Below are positions 5,344 to 11,150 of a stretch of 64,000 bases of DNA, one piece after another (position 1 is the first letter of the stretch; each line of letters opens with the position of its first letter). Under the pieces are notes generated by a model. That model saw only the letters and a list, made by a program, of their open reading frames with translations, made no database searches and had not been told where the DNA came from. The stretch spans positions 1 through 64,000 of IMG/VR virus record IMGVR_UViG_3300031992_000021; one strand, 5' to 3'. The position numbers and the translations under genes are program-made. The DNA comes from a virus. Lineage: Duplodnaviria > Caudoviricetes.

Positions 5344-5609
5344 GCAAGATTCCACCTTTCGAGCTCTACCTCCGTGAACCCAAGATTCGACATCCTCCTG
5401 TTGCAAAGGAACGCAACAAGGTACAGAATGCCGCACACGACAGCCGCACACAACGCGACGGCAAACGCCGTAGTGAACGCAGTGGTGCGCACCACCATAA
5501 GCGCAAATGCGAACAATGCCATCGCCGCCTTCATGGCGACAGACGCATAGTACATCGCAGCATCTTTCATACGAAGCGCCCAGTAGGCGCAACTCATCTT
5601 CTTGCTCAT
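5340..5609 (-). CDS. small membrane protein
   Basis: 89 aa with two hydrophobic stretches, AAAGGA RBS. Confidence 0.65.
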   Translation of the reverse strand: MSKKMSCAYWALRMKDAAMYYASVAMKAAMALFAFALMVVRTTAFTTAFAVALCAAVVCGILYLVAFLCNRRMSNLGFTEVELERWNLA

Positions 5610-5661: not shown

Positions 5662-5691
5662 AAAAGGCCCTCCGGACGAATCCGGAGGGCC
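5662..5691 (-). terminator. intrinsic terminator closing the pentamer array
   Basis: Minus strand GGCCCTCCGGA-TTCG-TCCGGAGGGCC-TTTT: 11-bp perfect stem, UUCG loop, U-tract. Confidence 0.85.
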
Positions 5692-5698
5692 GTCGGTT

Positions 5699-6406
5699 GC
5701 AGCCGAGCATTTGTGCGCAACACATTGGAATGCCGCACATAACTTTGCCAAGCCTGCCTGATCGCGCCCTTCCTGGCTACTACATACCAAACCATGCCTG
5801 CCGGTCCGGACAATTCCGAGATCCGCCAGACCCAGCCTAACCAAGCCTGCCATGCAGTACCGAGCCTAGTCGAGCATAACCAATCCGATCACAACCTGCC
5901 ATGCTATACCCCTTTGTGCATGACAATGCCTTGCCCTGACAAACAATGCCAGCCAGACACCACCAATCAGGGCCGGACATGACTCAACCAAGCAACTCAT
6001 TGCTTCGCCTGCCGCTCCGGTCTGTACCAGACCACTCCGAACCGCTCCGGACATTTCCCTACCTTGCCTGCCACACTCTTCCGTGCCAAACATTTCCGCT
6101 CTCTGCCTCTCCAAGCCAATCTTAACCTGCCGTGCCAAACTGCGCTGAACCGGGCCGGTCATAGCCGGACAAAACCGGACATAACCTGCCGAGCCAAGCC
6201 ATGCAGATCAACTCACGACCGGGCCGATCAGGACCGGACATTGCCTGCCTGGCTATTCATTGCTGATCCCCGCTATTCACCGCCGAACTGGTCAGAACCT
6301 AACCGATCCAGCCGGGCAATTCAACGGGCAACTCCACGCAGCTATGCTTTGCATTGCCTGCCGAACCGGACACCACTCTGTAGAGTCATGCCCGTCCATG
6401 CCTGCA
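5699..6406 (-). ncRNA. putative guide-RNA array: 13 units of 4-nt delimiter + 8-12 D-G-H-N-N pentamers (VIPR-like)
   Basis: Delimiter hexamers (+ strand CCTGCC and variants) start at 5699, 5753, 5797, 5846, 5895, 5949, 6008, 6067, 6126, 6185, 6244, 6308, 6357, 6401. Spacings 54,44,49,49,54,59,59,59,59,59,64,49,44 are all 5n+4. By hand count, 119/130 pentamers have G at position 2 and 0/130 have G at position 3. Confidence 0.85.
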
Positions 6407-6422
6407 ATGGCGGATTGTGTGA

Positions 6423-6848
6423 TTATTTGTGGGAATCGATTGCTGTCCAGATGTCACTCAGACGCCTGAGGTGCGAATAGCGTTCACGAAGTCCGCGAAG
6501 CTGCTCAAGAGCGTCCCTCTCGGCAACAGCCATGAGGTCTTGTCTCTTCGCTACGTCGGAAGCAAGGCGATACGGGTTTTCGCCCCTGCCGCCAAGCCTG
6601 TCGGTCGAAAGCCCGATGAACATCGGAACCTCCGTCTTCTTGCCGTTGTCTTCGCACACGACGCGAAACGAGCGGATAAGACGTTGCGCCTGGTCAAGCC
6701 GATACTTTTCGGCCGCCACGCCGTCGTTCCACTCGAATGCGCTATGCAGCGGAGACTTCTCGTCGCGAGCCTCGTCAACCACGGCCTGCGGGCGCAACAG
6801 TCCCCCGTTGCGCTCCGCAATGGCCTTCAACGCTTCGATCTGCGTCAC
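6423..6848 (-). CDS. conserved phage protein, partner of the RAMP-like gene
   Basis: Motif L.P..VVDEARD..SPLHS.FEW.D..AAE.YRL.QA..LIR. GTGA overlap with the upstream gene; ends 16 nt before the array. Confidence 0.85.
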   Translation of the reverse strand: MTQIEALKAIAERNGGLLRPQAVVDEARDEKSPLHSAFEWNDGVAAEKYRLDQAQRLIRSFRVVCEDNGKKTEVPMFIGLSTDRLGGRGENPYRLASDVAKRQDLMAVAERDALEQLRGLRERYSHLRRLSDIWTAIDSHK

Positions 6849-7549
6849 TTCTTCGACCCTTTCTTCTCAAGCTTCATGACCTCTTCCTTGGTCGAGATCT
6901 CGAAGAGACCCCAGCCCATGCCGGCCGAACTCGTGGAGTCGGGACGGCCCTCGCAGATGCCGACCTGCATGCCGACACGCGCAAGAAGGTTGATGATGTC
7001 ATTCGCACGGAACTGGTCGGCATCGTAGCGGAAGCGCAAACGAGCGCCCCATTCGAGCCACTGGGGACGAACGGAGATGTCGGCGACCTTCTGGATTCCT
7101 CCGACGCGCACCATGCTCTCAAGCATCCTCGGCTCGCCGCCGATGATCTTGACCAGAGGAGTGCCCTCGTCGGCATCCCAGCCGTCCTCGAGAATGAAGA
7201 TCGACAACTTGGCGAGGCTCATCTTGAAGCCTACCAAACGGCAGGCCGAGATGCAGGCGTTCCTGAACGCTGCGGCGGGAATGCCGTCCCATCCCTCAAG
7301 GGAAAGGTGGCGTGCGCCGTTGAAGCATTCGGTGAAATCCTTTGCCTCTTTCTTCTTCCCCTTCGCGGCCGTGCTGCCGGCCTCCTGCTTCGCCTTGATG
7401 GCCATCTTGGCCTTGTGGCTGAACTTATGAATTACCAAGGGCGAAATGCCCTTGATCCAGATCTCTCCGATCTGCATGTTCGGAGGTGCGATGTGGATCG
7501 CTTCCTGCTTGACGTTGGCGCTATCGGCCTTCTTGTTTTCTTTGCCCAT
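6845..7549 (-). CDS. Cas7/RAMP-like protein, putative RNA-guided effector
   Basis: RAMP-type motif order: IKGISPLVIH (beta1), GIPAAAFRNAC (P..S/A.K/R helix), C-terminal Gly-rich loop VGMQVGICEGRP....GMGWGLF. AAGGAG RBS before ATG 7549; 234 aa. Confidence 0.75.
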   Translation of the reverse strand: MGKENKKADSANVKQEAIHIAPPNMQIGEIWIKGISPLVIHKFSHKAKMAIKAKQEAGSTAAKGKKKEAKDFTECFNGARHLSLEGWDGIPAAAFRNACISACRLVGFKMSLAKLSIFILEDGWDADEGTPLVKIIGGEPRMLESMVRVGGIQKVADISVRPQWLEWGARLRFRYDADQFRANDIINLLARVGMQVGICEGRPDSTSSAGMGWGLFEISTKEEVMKLEKKGSKK

Positions 7550-7717: not shown

Positions 7718-8824
7718 TCAGGCCTGCGTCGTCTGCGATTCGCCTTCCATGAACTTCTGGCAGATCAGGTGGATCGACGACGGATCCGGCGAGTGCAGCA
7801 TGCTCGAGATGAGCTTCGCCTCGTCGCTCTCCTTCGGGAACCTCGCCTCGATCGCCGATTCGAGCGTCGCAACGCTCTCCTTGCGGTCGACCACCGGCGC
7901 CAGATCACGCGCCTTGCTGGAGCGCATCACGATCCTCGCGATGGCGCACGTGTCGTGCACGATGGCGGCGATCCGCTTGTATCCGTCCTCTATCGAATCG
8001 TCCGCGATGATCTGGTAGAACGGGCGCTTCACTATCGGCATGTCCGCCGCTTTCTTCGCCTCCTCATCAAGGATGCGCCGAAACTCGTCAAGACCAACCT
8101 CGTCGACGATCTCCACGCCGACGACCTGCCTAGTATTTATCGGAACCGGCATCGCCTCCCATGTCTCGGTGTCAAGCACATAGAAGAACTTGTTCTGCGG
8201 CTCGTTCGACGACTTCATCTCGGTGGACCCCGGATTCACGTAGAGGACTCCGTTCCACTTCCGGCAGTCGGGGATATGCACATGCCCCATGAGCACGGCC
8301 TTCACCCCCAGCTTGTCGAGAAGCGGCGAGAGCTCCCTCACGCCGGTATCCGCGCTTCCTCCGCCGTTCATCTCGGCGAGCGCGAAGTGCATCACGAGGA
8401 TGTCGGTCTTGAAGCCCTCGTCCACCATCCTCTGAATCTCGGCGACCAAGTCCCTTCCGTTACGGTAGTTGATGCCGCTCATGCGGACGTTGCCGACCTG
8501 CGCATAATAGCCTTCCTTCATCGGCTCTACTCCGATGACGTCGAGCCATCCTCCGTTGGAAAGGTCGTGATTGCCGTCGATTCCGTAGACAGGCAATCCT
8601 GCGGACTTGATTTCCGCTACGACCCCCTGCGCCGTGAGAACAGACTTCGCGTCCGGACGCGGCGAATCGAACAGGTCGCCGCCTATCACGACAGCGTCCA
8701 GATTCAACTCTCCGAGACTGCGCCCGAACTCCATGAATGCGTCGAGGAAGTCCTCGTAGCGCTCCTTCAGCCCATACTGCCGCGTGCCAAGATGCACGTC
8801 GCTTACCAAGGCAATTCTTGCCAT
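7718..8824 (-). CDS. sbcD: SbcD/Mre11 nuclease
   Basis: Metallophosphoesterase motifs SDVHLG, GGDLFD, GNHD, GHVH, NPGS; adjacent to Rad50. Confidence 0.95.
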   Translation of the reverse strand: MARIALVSDVHLGTRQYGLKERYEDFLDAFMEFGRSLGELNLDAVVIGGDLFDSPRPDAKSVLTAQGVVAEIKSAGLPVYGIDGNHDLSNGGWLDVIGVEPMKEGYYAQVGNVRMSGINYRNGRDLVAEIQRMVDEGFKTDILVMHFALAEMNGGGSADTGVRELSPLLDKLGVKAVLMGHVHIPDCRKWNGVLYVNPGSTEMKSSNEPQNKFFYVLDTETWEAMPVPINTRQVVGVEIVDEVGLDEFRRILDEEAKKAADMPIVKRPFYQIIADDSIEDGYKRIAAIVHDTCAIARIVMRSSKARDLAPVVDRKESVATLESAIEARFPKESDEAKLISSMLHSPDPSSIHLICQKFMEGESQTTQA

Positions 8825-8825
8825 G

Positions 8826-11150
8826 TCAGTCCTCCTTGTTGATGATTGCCCCGAGATCGATCCTCGTGTCGAGAAACGGCATGATCGCCTTCTCGTGTGT
8901 CGCCATGAGAATCTGCAGGCCCTTGTTCCTCGCGACCTCCCCGACCTTCTGGAGAAGCTCCCCGAGATGCCCGATCGACGCGTCGTCCAGGTACGCCGTA
9001 GGCTCGTCCAGGCTGAGAAGCCCGAGCTCGCCGCCGAAGCACATGTAGATCGCCATGCGGAACGCGATGGCCAAGGCCACCTTCTGCCCTCCGGAGAGGA
9101 GCGATGCGTCCGGATGCGGATCCGGCATGCTGCGGCCGTCGATGAAGCAGCATCGGAAGCCGAAGCCCTCCTCCTCCGCCTCCACGACGAACGGTGCGCA
9201 GAACTGGTCGAGATACGAGTTGACGCACGCGGTCAGCTCCTTCATCACGTTCTGAGACATGATCCGCGGACCTTCCCTGTAGTGGAACCAGTCGCGGGAA
9301 CGCTTGAGCGTGTCGACCTTCGCCTTGACCTTCTCCTCGAGCTCCTTCTTCTGCACGAGCTCGTCCACGAAGCTCCTCGTCTTCTTGATGGTCTCCTCGG
9401 CGGCCTCAAGCTGACCCTTCGTTCCTGCCATGTCGCGCAGGATGCCGTTGTAGGCGTCGAGGTTTGCCCTTGCCTTCCTGAGCGCATTGTCGCAGGATCC
9501 TTCGTCTCCGTTCTTCACGGACTCTGGATCGATGCCCAGGCCGACGAGCTTCTCCGCGCAGTCGCGCCGGTTGTTCCCGATGAGGTCGATCTGGGCGGCA
9601 AGCTTCGCCACGTTGTCGCGGGCGTCCTTCGCCTGCATCTTCGTGGATTCGATCGCGCTCAGCGACTTCGAGATCTCGGACATGCGGTCATTGATCTCGC
9701 CTATCCTGTTCTGGACGTGAACCTGCGTCTTCTGGATGTTCGGAAGGTCGTCAGGCGTCTGGCCCTTGTACGACACGACCTGCGTGAGCACGTCGATCTC
9801 GCACCCCTCGACATTTGCGTCTTTCGCCTTCTGCAAGGCGGCAAACGCGATGTCGTACGCGTTCTTCTCCCGCTTCTCCTTCTCGCGTGCGCCCTGCTCC
9901 TCGGCCCAGCGCTTGTCATAAGCCATCCGGGCTTCCTTCGCCTTGTCGCATGCAGACTTGGACCTTTCCTCCGCGGCCGAGATCCTCTCCTTGAGGTGCT
10001 TCTCGATGTCCTCCTGCGACGCCTGAGCTCCGCAAACTGGACACGTTCCGTCGCTGCTCGCCTCCTTTACGAGGTTGCGCAGAGACCTAAGTTCAGACTC
10101 GGCCGAAACCTGCTCAGCTCCAAGACGTTCGACCTCGGCATTGTCGTCCTCGATCTTCGTCTTGTACTTTCCGGTGATGTCGTTGAGCTCTGCCGTGGCG
10201 GCGCCGTAGCGCTCGCTTGCGCACGTCAATGCGTCTGCAAGCTCCTTCATCCGAGAGAGGAACCTCACCGACTCCTTGCATTCGTCAAGCTCCTTACGCT
10301 TGATGTCGAGCTCCGCGGAAAGTTCGGCATGCTCATTCCTGAGCTTCTGCCACTCATCCTCGGACACTGCCCCCATGCCTGCGAGCTTCGCAAGAGCGCT
10401 CTCGTGCTGGGCCTGCGTATCGGCGAGCGCCTGCTCGGCCCTCACATACGCAGCGATCGCCTGCTGTGCGCCGGCGCACTGGTCGACCTCCGCCTCAAGC
10501 GATTCCTTGCTCGGAAGCGTCTTGACTGCGTTCTCGTACTTGGCGAGAGCCTCGCGGCACTTCTTCGCGACCGCCTCCTGGTCTGCAAGCTGCTGCCGCG
10601 CCCTTGCGATCGCCTCGTCGAATCCCTGAGGCTTGTCATACGCCGCGATCTCGGTACGCAGCGCCTCGTATATCTTCGACGCGTTCCCGATTCCGATGAG
10701 CCGCTGGAAAGCGACTTCGCGGTTCTTGGGATCGTCGAAGAGGATCGCGTCGATTCCCTTCTGGGGAACGAACACGATCTGGCGTATCAGTTCCTTGTCG
10801 AGACCCGCCTTCTCGCGCAGGGCCTCCTCGACCTTCTTGGCCTGCTTGACCGTCTCGTCGCCCACCTTCAGGACGACGTCTCCGTTTGTCTTCCTGGTTA
10901 CGACGAACTCGTCGTTCCGCGGTCCGGCCGTGAAGAACAGCCTCACGGATCCTTCCTTCTCGCCCCATGTCGTGAGGTCGGCCTTGGTGAATCCAGGCTG
11001 CTCTCCGGTAAGGGCGAACTGTATCGCTCCGATCAGGTTGGACTTGCCGCACCCGTTCGGCCCGAGCACGGCGATCAGATTGCCGCTGAAGTCAACGTCC
11101 AGCTGGCGGTGCTGACGGTAGTTCGTCAGCTCAATCCTTTTCAAGTGCAT
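8826..11150 (-). CDS. sbcC: SbcC/Rad50 SMC-like ATPase
   Basis: Walker A GPNGCGKS, coiled coil with CPVC zinc hook, signature LSGGQ, Walker B LSLDEPT, H-loop ATH. Confidence 0.95.
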   Translation of the reverse strand: MHLKRIELTNYRQHRQLDVDFSGNLIAVLGPNGCGKSNLIGAIQFALTGEQPGFTKADLTTWGEKEGSVRLFFTAGPRNDEFVVTRKTNGDVVLKVGDETVKQAKKVEEALREKAGLDKELIRQIVFVPQKGIDAILFDDPKNREVAFQRLIGIGNASKIYEALRTEIAAYDKPQGFDEAIARARQQLADQEAVAKKCREALAKYENAVKTLPSKESLEAEVDQCAGAQQAIAAYVRAEQALADTQAQHESALAKLAGMGAVSEDEWQKLRNEHAELSAELDIKRKELDECKESVRFLSRMKELADALTCASERYGAATAELNDITGKYKTKIEDDNAEVERLGAEQVSAESELRSLRNLVKEASSDGTCPVCGAQASQEDIEKHLKERISAAEERSKSACDKAKEARMAYDKRWAEEQGAREKEKREKNAYDIAFAALQKAKDANVEGCEIDVLTQVVSYKGQTPDDLPNIQKTQVHVQNRIGEINDRMSEISKSLSAIESTKMQAKDARDNVAKLAAQIDLIGNNRRDCAEKLVGLGIDPESVKNGDEGSCDNALRKARANLDAYNGILRDMAGTKGQLEAAEETIKKTRSFVDELVQKKELEEKVKAKVDTLKRSRDWFHYREGPRIMSQNVMKELTACVNSYLDQFCAPFVVEAEEEGFGFRCCFIDGRSMPDPHPDASLLSGGQKVALAIAFRMAIYMCFGGELGLLSLDEPTAYLDDASIGHLGELLQKVGEVARNKGLQILMATHEKAIMPFLDTRIDLGAIINKED

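What the first reader, a model, noticed from the sequence alone, without database searches (positions are those of the whole stretch)
5662..7549. Putative phage RNA-guided system: Cas7/RAMP-like gene + partner gene + 13-unit pentamer-coded guide array
Seen in sequence: one - strand unit comprising a 234-aa RAMP-like gene, a coupled 141-aa gene, a 708-bp non-coding array starting 16 nt later, and a perfect UUCG terminator. The array is not CRISPR, since it has no long identical repeat. It has 14 GGCAGG-type delimiters with every spacing equal to 5n+4 (44-64 nt). Each unit is 4 nt plus 8-12 pentamers. Example unit 6190->6132: GGCA GGTTA TGTCC GGTTT TGTCC GGCTA TGACC GGCCC GGTTC AGCGC AGTTT GGCAC. 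Position 2 is G in 119/130 pentamers, position 3 is never G, and positions 4-5 are free. Established: Cas7-family RAMPs polymerise along guide RNA with a fixed nucleotide period. Inference: each protomer grips a constant DGH triplet and exposes a variable dinucleotide, so each unit is a separate guide with a non-contiguous code. No cas1/2/3/5/6 is present in the window. From memory this resembles recently reported phage 'VIPR'-type GGY/NN systems. I could not verify that here, so novelty needs checking.
Basis: partly seen in the sequence, partly recalled or inferred. Interest (0 to 1): 0.97.

Follow-up and report, generated by a model that had tools for sequence, protein, structure and literature searches.

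The report
Phage VIPR system, staggered guide array
This 163-kb sheep-gut phage carries a VIPR RNA-guided silencing system, a kind first described in 2026 preprints, and four of its 13 pentamer-coded guides match replication genes of rival phages and a bacterial restriction-modification gene.

Summary
On the minus strand lie a 234-aa gene, a coupled 141-aa gene, 13 head-to-tail units of DGH-NN pentamers (6404-5700) and a strong terminator. The one-base phase slip at each GGCAGG matches their 'staggered vrRNA array'. So it is a new member of a known kind, not a new system.

Tested here:
- The protein has a Cas7-like RAMP fold (Z up to 10.1) and is distantly homologous to the SUSP1 Vipr prototype.
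- 74 of 82 related loci carry the same kind of array, and 566 of 598 phase steps are the stagger.
- The published 1-nt skip rule, and only that rule, gives natural targets. Guides 3, 4 and 5 match DUF669, Prim-Pol primase and Sak4 genes on the same foreign phage contigs. Guide 11 matches 18/18 bases at the 5' end of a type I R-M methylase gene in 43 bacterial genomes.
- The phage does not target itself.

The R-M target suggests an anti-defence use that the VIPR papers do not report. RNA evidence is weak (contigs only). The other nine guides have no identified target.

The parts
6845..7549 (-). vipr: 234-aa minimal RAMP (Cas7-like) protein, the vrRNA-binding filament subunit
   Evidence: ORF and RBS. 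No Pfam hit; phrog_4652, E 2.3e-15. 6,472 unannotated relatives. AF2 pLDDT 83.4. RAMP fold with Z up to 10.1. The family profile finds the SUSP1 vipr gene at E 1.3e-6, and hhalign gives 88% probability, E 3.3e-6.
6423..6848 (-). vap-type accessory gene: 141 aa, start overlaps the vipr stop; a winged-helix-like N-terminal domain plus a long C-terminal helix
   Evidence: ORF. phrog_15946, E 5.6e-24. A homologue sits directly after vipr in at least 60 of 80 related loci. AF2 pLDDT 93.5. Only weak winged-helix-type matches, Z up to 6.0 and Foldseek E at least 0.7. Not homologous to SUSP1 vap1.
6422..6449 (-). sigma-70-like promoter match just upstream of the array (possible array promoter)
   Evidence: TGGACA-16-AATAAT, 10 of 12. 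This is a consensus match only: 2 such sites were found in the region against 1.2 expected.
5700..6404 (-). staggered vrRNA array: 13 units of 9-13 DGH-NN pentamers, with neighbouring units sharing one G at GGCA(G)G
   Evidence: The delimiter is conserved across the clade: C 95% and A 88% at the two positions the search pattern barely constrained (non-G, then any base). It matches 'staggered vrRNA arrays' in Fig. S18 of 10.64898/2026.04.26.720920.
6245..6309 (-). guide 3: predicted target is the N-terminal motif of DUF669 genes in other phages
   Evidence: 17-18 of 20 NN bases in 12 loci under the 1-nt skip rule only; 0/200 and 0/500 shuffles reach this. Target family PF05037, E 2e-18.
6186..6245 (-). 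guide 4: predicted target is the Prim-Pol catalytic motif (TRGEGG) of phage primase-helicase genes
   Evidence: The 18-base core of pentamers 1-9 hits at least 120 viral contigs, and 116/120 are Prim-Pol-type. PF09250 and phrog_19930. Equal-sized cores of guides 7 and 8 give 0 hits.
6127..6186 (-). guide 5: predicted target is the GGYGKGY motif of Sak4-like AAA_24 recombination ATPase genes
   Evidence: 20/22 in L011, with 0/1000 shuffles reaching it. The 18-base core hits 67 viral contigs, 62 of them at 21/22. PF13479, E 1.8e-48, and phrog_124.
5798..5847 (-). guide 11: predicted target is codons ~20-50 of a long type I R-M methyltransferase (hsdM) gene of bacteria
   Evidence: The 18/18 core gives 49 genome hits, and 43 lie on one in-frame antisense motif. 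HsdM_N plus N6_Mtase, and PADLOC MTase_I PDLC03027 at E = 0. hsdS lies downstream.
5666..5691 (-). intrinsic terminator closing the operon
   Evidence: 11-bp stem, 9 GC pairs, TTCG loop, T-tail.

Best explanation
This is a phage-encoded VIPR (Viral Interference Programmable Repeat) system with a staggered 13-guide array.

Shown here by computation:
- The vipr product has a RAMP/Cas7 fold and is related to the SUSP1 Vipr.
- It is coupled to a conserved vap gene and followed by 13 vrRNA units built of (G/D)G(Y/H)-NN pentamers.
- Four guides have natural matches that appear only under the published 1-nt skip rule, with the skipped base on the codon wobble position.

Inferred from the published SUSP1 biochemistry and cryo-EM: the array is transcribed from the operon or from its own promoter. 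One Vipr protomer binds each pentamer, flips out and holds the GGY triplet, and presents the NN pair. The resulting filament binds double-stranded DNA whose sequence reads xNN xNN and so on, and it blocks transcription.

My inference about the delimiter: the 4-nt 'short pentamer' GGCA at each unit end breaks the 5-nt register. It therefore ends one filament or guide and starts the next, and the last one or two pentamers act as a handle rather than as guide. In guides 4, 5 and 11 the matches stop before the end of the unit.

Biological role (inferred): the phage silences conserved catalytic-motif DNA in the Sak4 / DUF669 / Prim-Pol replication-recombination module of competing phages or proviruses. 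With guide 11 it may also silence a type I restriction-modification operon. Reading only codon positions 1 and 2 makes synonymous escape mutations useless.
For: Literature definition of VIPR.

Protein: RAMP fold. Homology to SUSP1 Vipr, with the thumb arginine R138 (SYRP) aligned to invariant R161 (SVRP). Identical gene order vipr - ~145-aa gene - non-coding array in SUSP1.

Array: statistics and parse. Positive control on SUSP1. Clade-wide co-occurrence and conserved GGCAGG delimiter.

Targets:
- Guide 5 to Sak4.
- Guide 4 to Prim-Pol.
- Guide 3 to DUF669.
- All three sites lie on one strand of the same contigs, including two proviruses.
- Guide 11 to hsdM.
- In every case only skip = 1 beats the shuffles.
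- Clade-wide, 237 guides give 96 hits at 18/20 or better (45 at 19/20 or better). Three shuffles per guide give 17 hits in total, none above 18.

Self-avoidance: no self-target, and no Prim-Pol or AAA_24 gene in the phage.

Expression hint: RNA-library contigs over the array have the highest depth of the 5-kb stretch in three runs from two studies.
Against: - No direct evidence of transcription, processing or Vipr binding. The RNA runs are assembled contigs and may contain DNA.
- The link to SUSP1 Vipr is weak at sequence level (62 aligned columns). The G-loop contacts D177/W178/R179 cannot be mapped with confidence, because this clade has an 8-residue insertion there.
- The vap protein is unrelated to vap1 and its fold matches are weak.
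- Nine of the 13 guides have no identified target. Guides 6, 7, 8 and 10 were searched in public collections or genome panels and came back at chance level.
- Guide 4 matches only pentamers 1-9; its pentamers 10-11 are at chance. No perfect full-length site was found for guide 5.
- The native host and the native competitor are unknown.
Confidence: 0.9

Rival explanations
1. The guides act on RNA rather than DNA. The vrRNA-Vipr filament would bind target mRNAs as an antisense silencer, like a type III CRISPR backbone.
For: All four targets of this phage's own guides are antisense to the coding strand, so the guides are complementary to the mRNAs as well. The closest structural relatives are RNA-targeting Csm3/Cmr4/Cas7-11.
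Against: Four of four has a chance of only 1 in 8. Guides of related arrays hit Sak4 in the sense orientation. The published SUSP1 system binds double-stranded DNA and silences from either strand.
Confidence: 0.07
2. Guide 11 does not disarm the host. Instead it targets a type I R-M system carried by a competing mobile element, or it is a decoy or regulatory site. The array would then be purely an inter-element weapon, as already published.
For: In one hit the hsdM gene lies next to a tyrosine integrase, and in another it lies in an island with other defence-like genes. One hit is on a viral contig. Pre-made R-M enzyme would still cut incoming phage DNA, so silencing transcription gives no immediate protection. 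Satellite vrRNAs aimed at host decoy sites are published.
Against: 43 hits lie on bacterial contigs of up to 660 kb from many families. The site is at the 5' end of the first gene of the operon, which is ideal for a transcription block. The phage is large and may have a long or chronic cycle.
Confidence: 0.35
3. The pentamer tract is a DNA-level element (protein-binding iterons or a recombination or packaging signal), and the RAMP-like protein is unrelated to it.
For: No direct RNA evidence. Some related arrays score on both strands.
Against: Strict same-strand linkage to vipr in 74 of 82 loci. An operon terminator follows the array. The variable NN pairs decode into foreign gene motifs under one specific rule. 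The identical repeat grammar in SUSP1 was shown to be RNA bound by Vipr.
Confidence: 0.02

Closest known systems
VIPR systems with staggered vrRNA arrays (Fig. S18 of bioRxiv 10.64898/2026.04.26.720920)
   Same: A Vipr RAMP gene next to an array in which successive GGY/NN vrRNAs overlap by 1 nt. It is a two-gene locus, virus-encoded, with no cas genes. Targets obey the 1-nt skip rule with the skip on the wobble position, and there is no self-targeting.
   Different: Nothing structural that I can show. The paper says only the ribozyme-interspersed and single-vrRNA layouts were confirmed by small-RNA-seq, so the staggered layout is still a prediction. I could not assign the type (I-VII) or the vap class because the supplementary data are not held. 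The conserved GGCAGG delimiter and the target set reported here are not in the text I could read.
Type II VIPR of Escherichia phage SUSP1 (NC_028808.2; vipr agp039, vap1 agp038)
   Same: Same gene order and sizes (195/146 aa against 234/141 aa). Distant but significant Vipr homology, with the thumb Arg and the beta-sheet His conserved. Same DG(Y)-NN pentamer grammar.
   Different: SUSP1 vrRNAs are about 100 nt, each with a conserved ~70-nt structured 3' tail, and one lies upstream of vipr. Here there are 13 tail-less units of 45-65 nt joined by a 1-nt overlap. The vap proteins are unrelated. SUSP1 guides converge on a satellite, whereas these converge on a Sak4/DUF669/Prim-Pol module and an hsdM gene.
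Class 1 CRISPR-Cas backbone filaments (Cas7/Csm3/Cmr4/Csf2)
   Same: RAMP fold with thumb and glycine-rich loop (Z 8-10). One protomer binds per fixed RNA step and flips bases at regular intervals.
   Different: 5-nt step instead of 6. Three of every five guide bases are sequestered. There are no long identical repeats, no spacers, no Cas1/Cas2 and no Cas5/Cas6/large subunit. Sequence identity is about 10%.
Phage anti-restriction strategies (e.g. Ocr/ArdA DNA mimics; from my own knowledge)
   Same: If guide 11 acts on the host, the outcome (neutralising type I R-M) would be the same.
   Different: Those are proteins that inhibit the enzyme directly. Here the proposed mode is RNA-guided silencing of the hsdM operon, which is unproven.

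Membership tests
VIPR | Vipr protein: minimal single-RRM RAMP fold with thumb and glycine-rich loop | tested here: met
   AF2 pLDDT 83.4, pTM 0.78. The top 35 of 50 VIA-align rows are all CRISPR RAMPs, Z up to 10.1; Foldseek E 1.5e-5. A conserved Gly-rich C-terminal loop has invariant G197, G201, G210, G212 and G214.
VIPR | Sequence relationship to published Vipr proteins | tested here: met
   The family profile finds only the SUSP1 vipr ORF in the 90.7-kb genome, E 1.3e-6. hhalign gives 87.9% probability, E 3.3e-6, over 62 columns. I could not test against X1U2U4 because no sequence is held.
VIPR | Conservation of GGY-contact residues (H17, R138, D177, W178, R179 of SUSP1 Vipr) | tested here: inconclusive
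   R138 aligns to invariant R161. H17 matches nearly invariant H41 by motif comparison. The G-loop trio cannot be placed because of an 8-residue insertion; E200, R202 and W213 are candidates.
VIPR | vrRNA: at least 4 tandem YNNGG (GGY/NN) pentamers in an intergenic region flanking vipr, same strand | tested here: met
   13 units of 9-13 pentamers. Position 2 is G in 132/143 and position 3 is never G. Score 153.6 against a shuffle maximum of 6.9.
VIPR | Staggered array variant: successive vrRNAs overlap by 1 nt | tested here: met
   All 13 units are multiples of 5 nt when the shared G is counted. 566/598 phase steps are -1 in related loci.
VIPR | Minimal locus: vipr plus one vap gene, no CRISPR array, no other cas genes | tested here: met
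   No Cas1 in the 163-kb genome. The vap is conserved but is not vap1, and its class among vap2-6 could not be determined.
VIPR | Encoded by a virus or provirus | tested here: met
   The window lies in a 162,950-bp IMG/VR virus record, 92% complete. There are 539 relatives in viral contigs.
VIPR | Natural targets follow the 1-nt skip rule (at least 80% NN match), skip base on codon wobble, no self-targets | tested here: met
   Guides 3, 4, 5 and 11 exceed shuffled controls only at skip = 1. The own genome scores at shuffle level.
VIPR | vrRNAs are expressed and co-purify with Vipr; the RNP binds dsDNA and represses transcription | not testable with these tools
   There is only a hint: RNA-library contigs over the array have the highest depth in 3 runs from 2 studies.
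CRISPR-Cas (class 1) | Array of long near-identical direct repeats separated by unique spacers | tested here: not met
   The only recurring element is the 6-nt GGCAGG. No Rfam CRISPR or other family hit.
CRISPR-Cas (class 1) | Adaptation and effector partners (Cas1/Cas2, Cas5, Cas6, large subunit) | tested here: not met
   No Cas1 in the genome. The neighbouring genes are SbcD/SbcC-like and unknowns. Other cas families were not searched one by one.

The most novel reading that the evidence does not exclude
A phage uses one guide of its VIPR array (unit 5847-5798) to silence the host's type I restriction-modification operon at the 5' end of hsdM. VIPR would then serve as a programmable, RNA-guided anti-defence device as well as a weapon against rival phages. 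Reading only codon positions 1-2 of a conserved HsdM motif would let a single guide cover the R-M systems of many hosts. A second new point would be that the 4-nt GGCA register break alone delimits guides in tail-less staggered arrays.
Probability: 0.3. Interest if true: 0.8.

Novelty: new member of a known kind. Interest (0 to 1): 0.45.

Why it matters
VIPR is a months-old discovery, and only E. coli and Pseudomonas type II systems have been studied at the bench. This locus is a clean, compact example of the staggered array layout, which has not been validated experimentally. It has 13 guides, a conserved 6-nt delimiter, and four decodable natural targets that can go straight into reporter assays.

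The targets extend the known repertoire. The published targets are satellites, prophage regulators and other VIPRs. Here the targets are the catalytic motifs of a replication-recombination module (Sak4, DUF669, Prim-Pol) shared by many phages, and possibly a host defence gene.

If the hsdM guide works on the host, it would be an example of RNA-guided anti-restriction by a phage. It would also show that wobble-skipping guides can be aimed at protein motifs rather than at particular genomes.

Tried and rejected
- **Family and structure look-ups with no result:** Rfam found nothing above chance on the locus. Pfam found nothing for either protein. A sequence search of the PDB found nothing, so the VIPR cryo-EM chains are either not in the copy or too distant.
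- **VIPR type and vap class:** not assignable, because no supplementary files are held.
- **Other pentamer tracts in the genome:** 41316-41246, 37961-37920, 72395-72346, 95874-95772 and 144666-144633 all lie inside open reading frames and are taken as chance.
- **Guide 5, full 22-base exact pattern:** 0 viral hits.
- **Guides without a target:** guides 7 and 8 gave 0 viral hits, and their hits in 401 genomes of the class of a Kiritimatiellae MAG were at control level. Guide 6 gave 1 viral hit, which is chance. Guide 10 gave 27 metagenome hits scattered over unrelated frames, many with stops. Guides 1, 2, 9, 12 and 13 were tested only on fetched loci and scored at shuffle level.
- **No further convergence:** whole contigs of four elements hit by guides 3, 4 and 5 showed no hits by the other ten guides.
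0 of 120 hits are dUTPase-like and 116 are Prim-Pol-like.
- **vap:** no homology to SUSP1 vap1. The fold search is inconclusive, winged-helix-like at Z 6 or below.
- **Skip base:** it does not correlate with pentamer position 1 or 3.
- **Read evidence:** contigs cannot show RNA ends, so processing at the delimiters could not be tested.
Full report
**1. What is there**

On the minus strand there is a 234-aa ORF at 7549-6845 with an AAGGAG ribosome-binding site. A 141-aa ORF at 6848-6423 follows, and its GTG start overlaps the upstream stop. After about 18 nt comes a 705-nt non-coding tract (6404-5700). The unit closes with an 11-bp GC-rich hairpin with a TTCG loop and T-tail at 5691-5666. The upstream neighbours are SbcD- and SbcC-like genes. 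The window is the first 64 kb of a 162,950-bp IMG/VR virus record estimated 92% complete. Its DNA is held in sheep-gut metagenomes.

**2. The array is real**

- GG dinucleotides keep a constant position modulo 5 within a unit and slip by one at each GGCAGG.
- A five-phase Viterbi model parses 13 consecutive units, each starting one phase lower than the last.
- Counting the shared G, all 13 units are exact multiples of 5 nt (9-13 pentamers) and end in GGCAG or GGCTG.
- Position 2 is G in 132/143 pentamers and position 3 is never G.
- The model score is 153.6 against at most 6.9 in 300 dinucleotide shuffles.
- The model was tuned on this array. As an independent control I ran it on phage SUSP1, where it recovers exactly the one upstream and three downstream vrRNAs that were mapped there by small-RNA-seq.
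- Elsewhere in the 163-kb genome it flags only short tracts inside open reading frames.

**3. It is a known kind of system**

The library holds four 2026 preprints on VIPR.
- The discovery paper defines a minimal RAMP protein (Vipr), an accessory vap gene, and vrRNAs of 9-16 YNNGG repeats whose NN pairs read double-stranded DNA with one skipped base per pair. These systems are mostly encoded by phages. There are seven types and several array layouts, including 'staggered arrays' whose vrRNAs overlap by 1 nt. That is the layout found here.
- The cryo-EM paper shows one protomer per pentamer, with the GGY triplet flipped out and held.
- A third paper shows phage-versus-satellite conflict.
- A fourth recovers 99 VIPR-like clusters from period-5 signals.

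**4. Membership tests**

- *Fold:* the protein has no Pfam family but 6,472 unannotated relatives. Its AlphaFold2 model (pLDDT 83.4, pTM 0.78) matches CRISPR Cas7-type RAMPs almost exclusively. The best matches are 6s6b_I (Z 10.1, rmsd 3.8, 153 aligned) and 9g9a_D (Z 9.9); Foldseek gives E 1.5e-5.
- *Homology to the prototype:* I recalled the SUSP1 accession from memory and the tool confirmed it as NC_028808.2. The profile of my family finds one place in that genome, the 195-aa gene agp039, at E 1.3e-6. hhalign gives 88% probability.
- *Contact residues:* the published thumb contact R138 (in SYRP) aligns with invariant R161 (SVRP). H17 corresponds by motif to nearly invariant H41. The G-loop contacts cannot be placed because this clade has an insertion there.
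- *Locus layout:* SUSP1 has the same order, vipr, then a 146-aa gene, then a non-coding array.
- *vap:* the 141-aa partner is conserved directly after vipr in at least 60 of 80 related loci. It is unrelated to SUSP1 vap1. Its confident model (pLDDT 93.5) gives only weak winged-helix-like matches plus a long C-terminal helix.
- *cas genes:* no Cas1 occurs in the genome.

**5. Relatives**

Of 82 related loci (80 viral contigs plus two GenBank phages), 74 carry a same-strand array beside the gene. It lies after the vap gene, directly after vipr, or upstream. 566 of 598 unit-to-unit phase steps are the -1 stagger. Unit lengths cluster at 44, 49, 54, 59 and 64. The delimiter is conserved as GGCAGG, with C 95% and A 88% at the two positions the search pattern barely constrained (non-G, then any base).

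**6. Targets**

I converted each unit to the four skip rules of the paper and scanned with shuffled-guide controls.

- *Own genome:* it gives nothing above the shuffles, as the paper reports for other systems.
- *Guide 5:* it reaches 20/22 and 19/22 in two loci under the 1-nt rule only, and 0 of 1,000 shuffles reach 20. The site is the GGYGKGY motif of Sak4-like AAA_24 genes, antisense, with the skipped base on the wobble position. An exact 18-base core search finds 67 viral contigs, 62 of them at 21/22. Pentamers 1-10 match 20/20.
- *Guide 4:* its core hits at least 120 viral contigs, 116 of 120 in the TRGEGG motif of Prim-Pol primase-helicases.
- *Background:* equal-sized cores of guides 7 and 8 give 0 hits, and guides 6 and 11 give 1 each. 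The background is therefore about nil.
- *Convergence:* in contigs selected only by guide 4, guides 5 and 3 score independently (19/20 and 18/20; 0/200 shuffles). Guide 3's sites are the N-terminal motif of DUF669 genes. Six contigs, two of them classed as proviruses, carry all three sites on one strand within about 4 kb.
- *Self-avoidance:* the phage itself has neither Prim-Pol nor AAA_24.
- *Clade-wide:* 237 guides from related arrays give 96 hits at 18/20 or better (45 at 19/20 or better). Three shuffles per guide give 17 hits in total, none above 18. Both orientations occur.

**7. Guide 11**

Its single viral hit lay in an HsdM gene, which alone is at chance level. Of these, 43 sit on one in-frame antisense motif (RGGMDPSQYK) at codons ~20-50 of ~820-aa type I methyltransferases. 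The other six are unrelated frames, which serves as the chance background. The proteins match PADLOC MTase_I PDLC03027 end to end and carry HsdM_N and N6_Mtase domains. hsdS follows, and the surroundings include an integrase in one case and a defence-island-like set of genes in another. The hits are mostly Bacteroidota, with some Verrucomicrobiota and Kiritimatiellae, including sheep and deer gut MAGs. None of the VIPR papers mentions R-M, methyltransferase, primase or Sak4 targets. Whether this guide disarms the host or attacks an R-M-bearing mobile element cannot be decided here.

**8. Expression**

Eight metatranscriptome runs hold the locus. Laid on 5 kb, the contigs over the array have the highest depth in three runs from two studies: 22.6, 20.9 and 29.7, against about 2-9 for the flanks. 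These are contigs from RNA libraries that may contain DNA, so this is only a hint. Several contigs leave the reference near 5854 (close to a delimiter) and at 6032 (mid-unit, about 20 nt from the nearest delimiter), and they continue with other pentamer guides. That suggests strain-level guide turnover.

**9. Earlier notes of this scan**

I reached both independently before reading them, and I tested them against databases.
- Its dUTPase guess for unit 6191-6249 is not supported; the target is Prim-Pol.
- Follow-up agents called the genome a rumen or gut phage (e1-5780659), which agrees.

**10. Verdict**

The system is a new member of a kind already described in preprints, including its array layout. 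The residual interest lies in the decoded target set, the possible anti-restriction guide, and the fact that this array type has not yet been validated experimentally.

Noticed in passing
window 5852-5897, 5854 and 6028-6032: Contigs from sheep and cattle RNA libraries match the array up to about 5854 (near a delimiter) or 6032 (mid-unit, about 20 nt from the nearest delimiter). They then continue with different pentamer-coded sequence, or carry small indels and a 52-nt replacement. This suggests strain-to-strain gain, loss or swapping of guides.
   Followed up: partly
L346:2309-2338 and 5976-6005; L352:5393-5422: Guides from two related phage arrays (L005 unit at 5542, 19/20; L006 unit at 5506, 18/20) hit the same Kiritimatiellae R-M island contigs that guide 11 retrieved, including a 196-aa gene just upstream of hsdM. 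These scores are near the shuffle ceiling, so the link is only suggestive of a shared host group.
   Followed up: partly
L055, L059, L071, L041, L070 and other related loci: Many related arrays score as pentamer arrays on both strands over the same coordinates. NN pairs rich in CC make the reverse complement fit the DGH-NN grammar too. It is unclear whether this is composition or bidirectional use.
   Followed up: no
L004:7095-7467: An 18-nt tandem repeat of 20.7 copies (88% matches) lies about 2 kb downstream of the VIPR array of a related phage. L064 shows a similar short-period pattern.
   Followed up: partly
window 7718-11150 (-): SbcD-like (Metallophos, phrog_100) and SbcC/Rad50-like (774 aa) genes lie immediately upstream of the VIPR operon on the same strand. 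A hairpin terminator at about 7668-7640 separates them from vipr.
   Followed up: no
L083 (Mycobacterium phage Brocalys gp45) and L082 (Cyanophage Cy-LDV1 g34): Cultured GenBank phages carry homologues of this Vipr annotated as hypothetical proteins, with pentamer tracts beside them: 27 Mycobacterium, 5 Gordonia, 1 cyanophage and 1 Pseudomonas record. In Brocalys and Cy-LDV1 the gene sits next to the immunity and excision region. These are ready laboratory models for this clade.
   Followed up: partly
window 6128-6069 (guide 6): Guide 6 contains an internal GGCAG pentamer that is not followed by GG and causes no phase slip. The delimiter signal therefore appears to be GGCAGG, or the register break itself, rather than GGCAG alone.
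   Followed up: no
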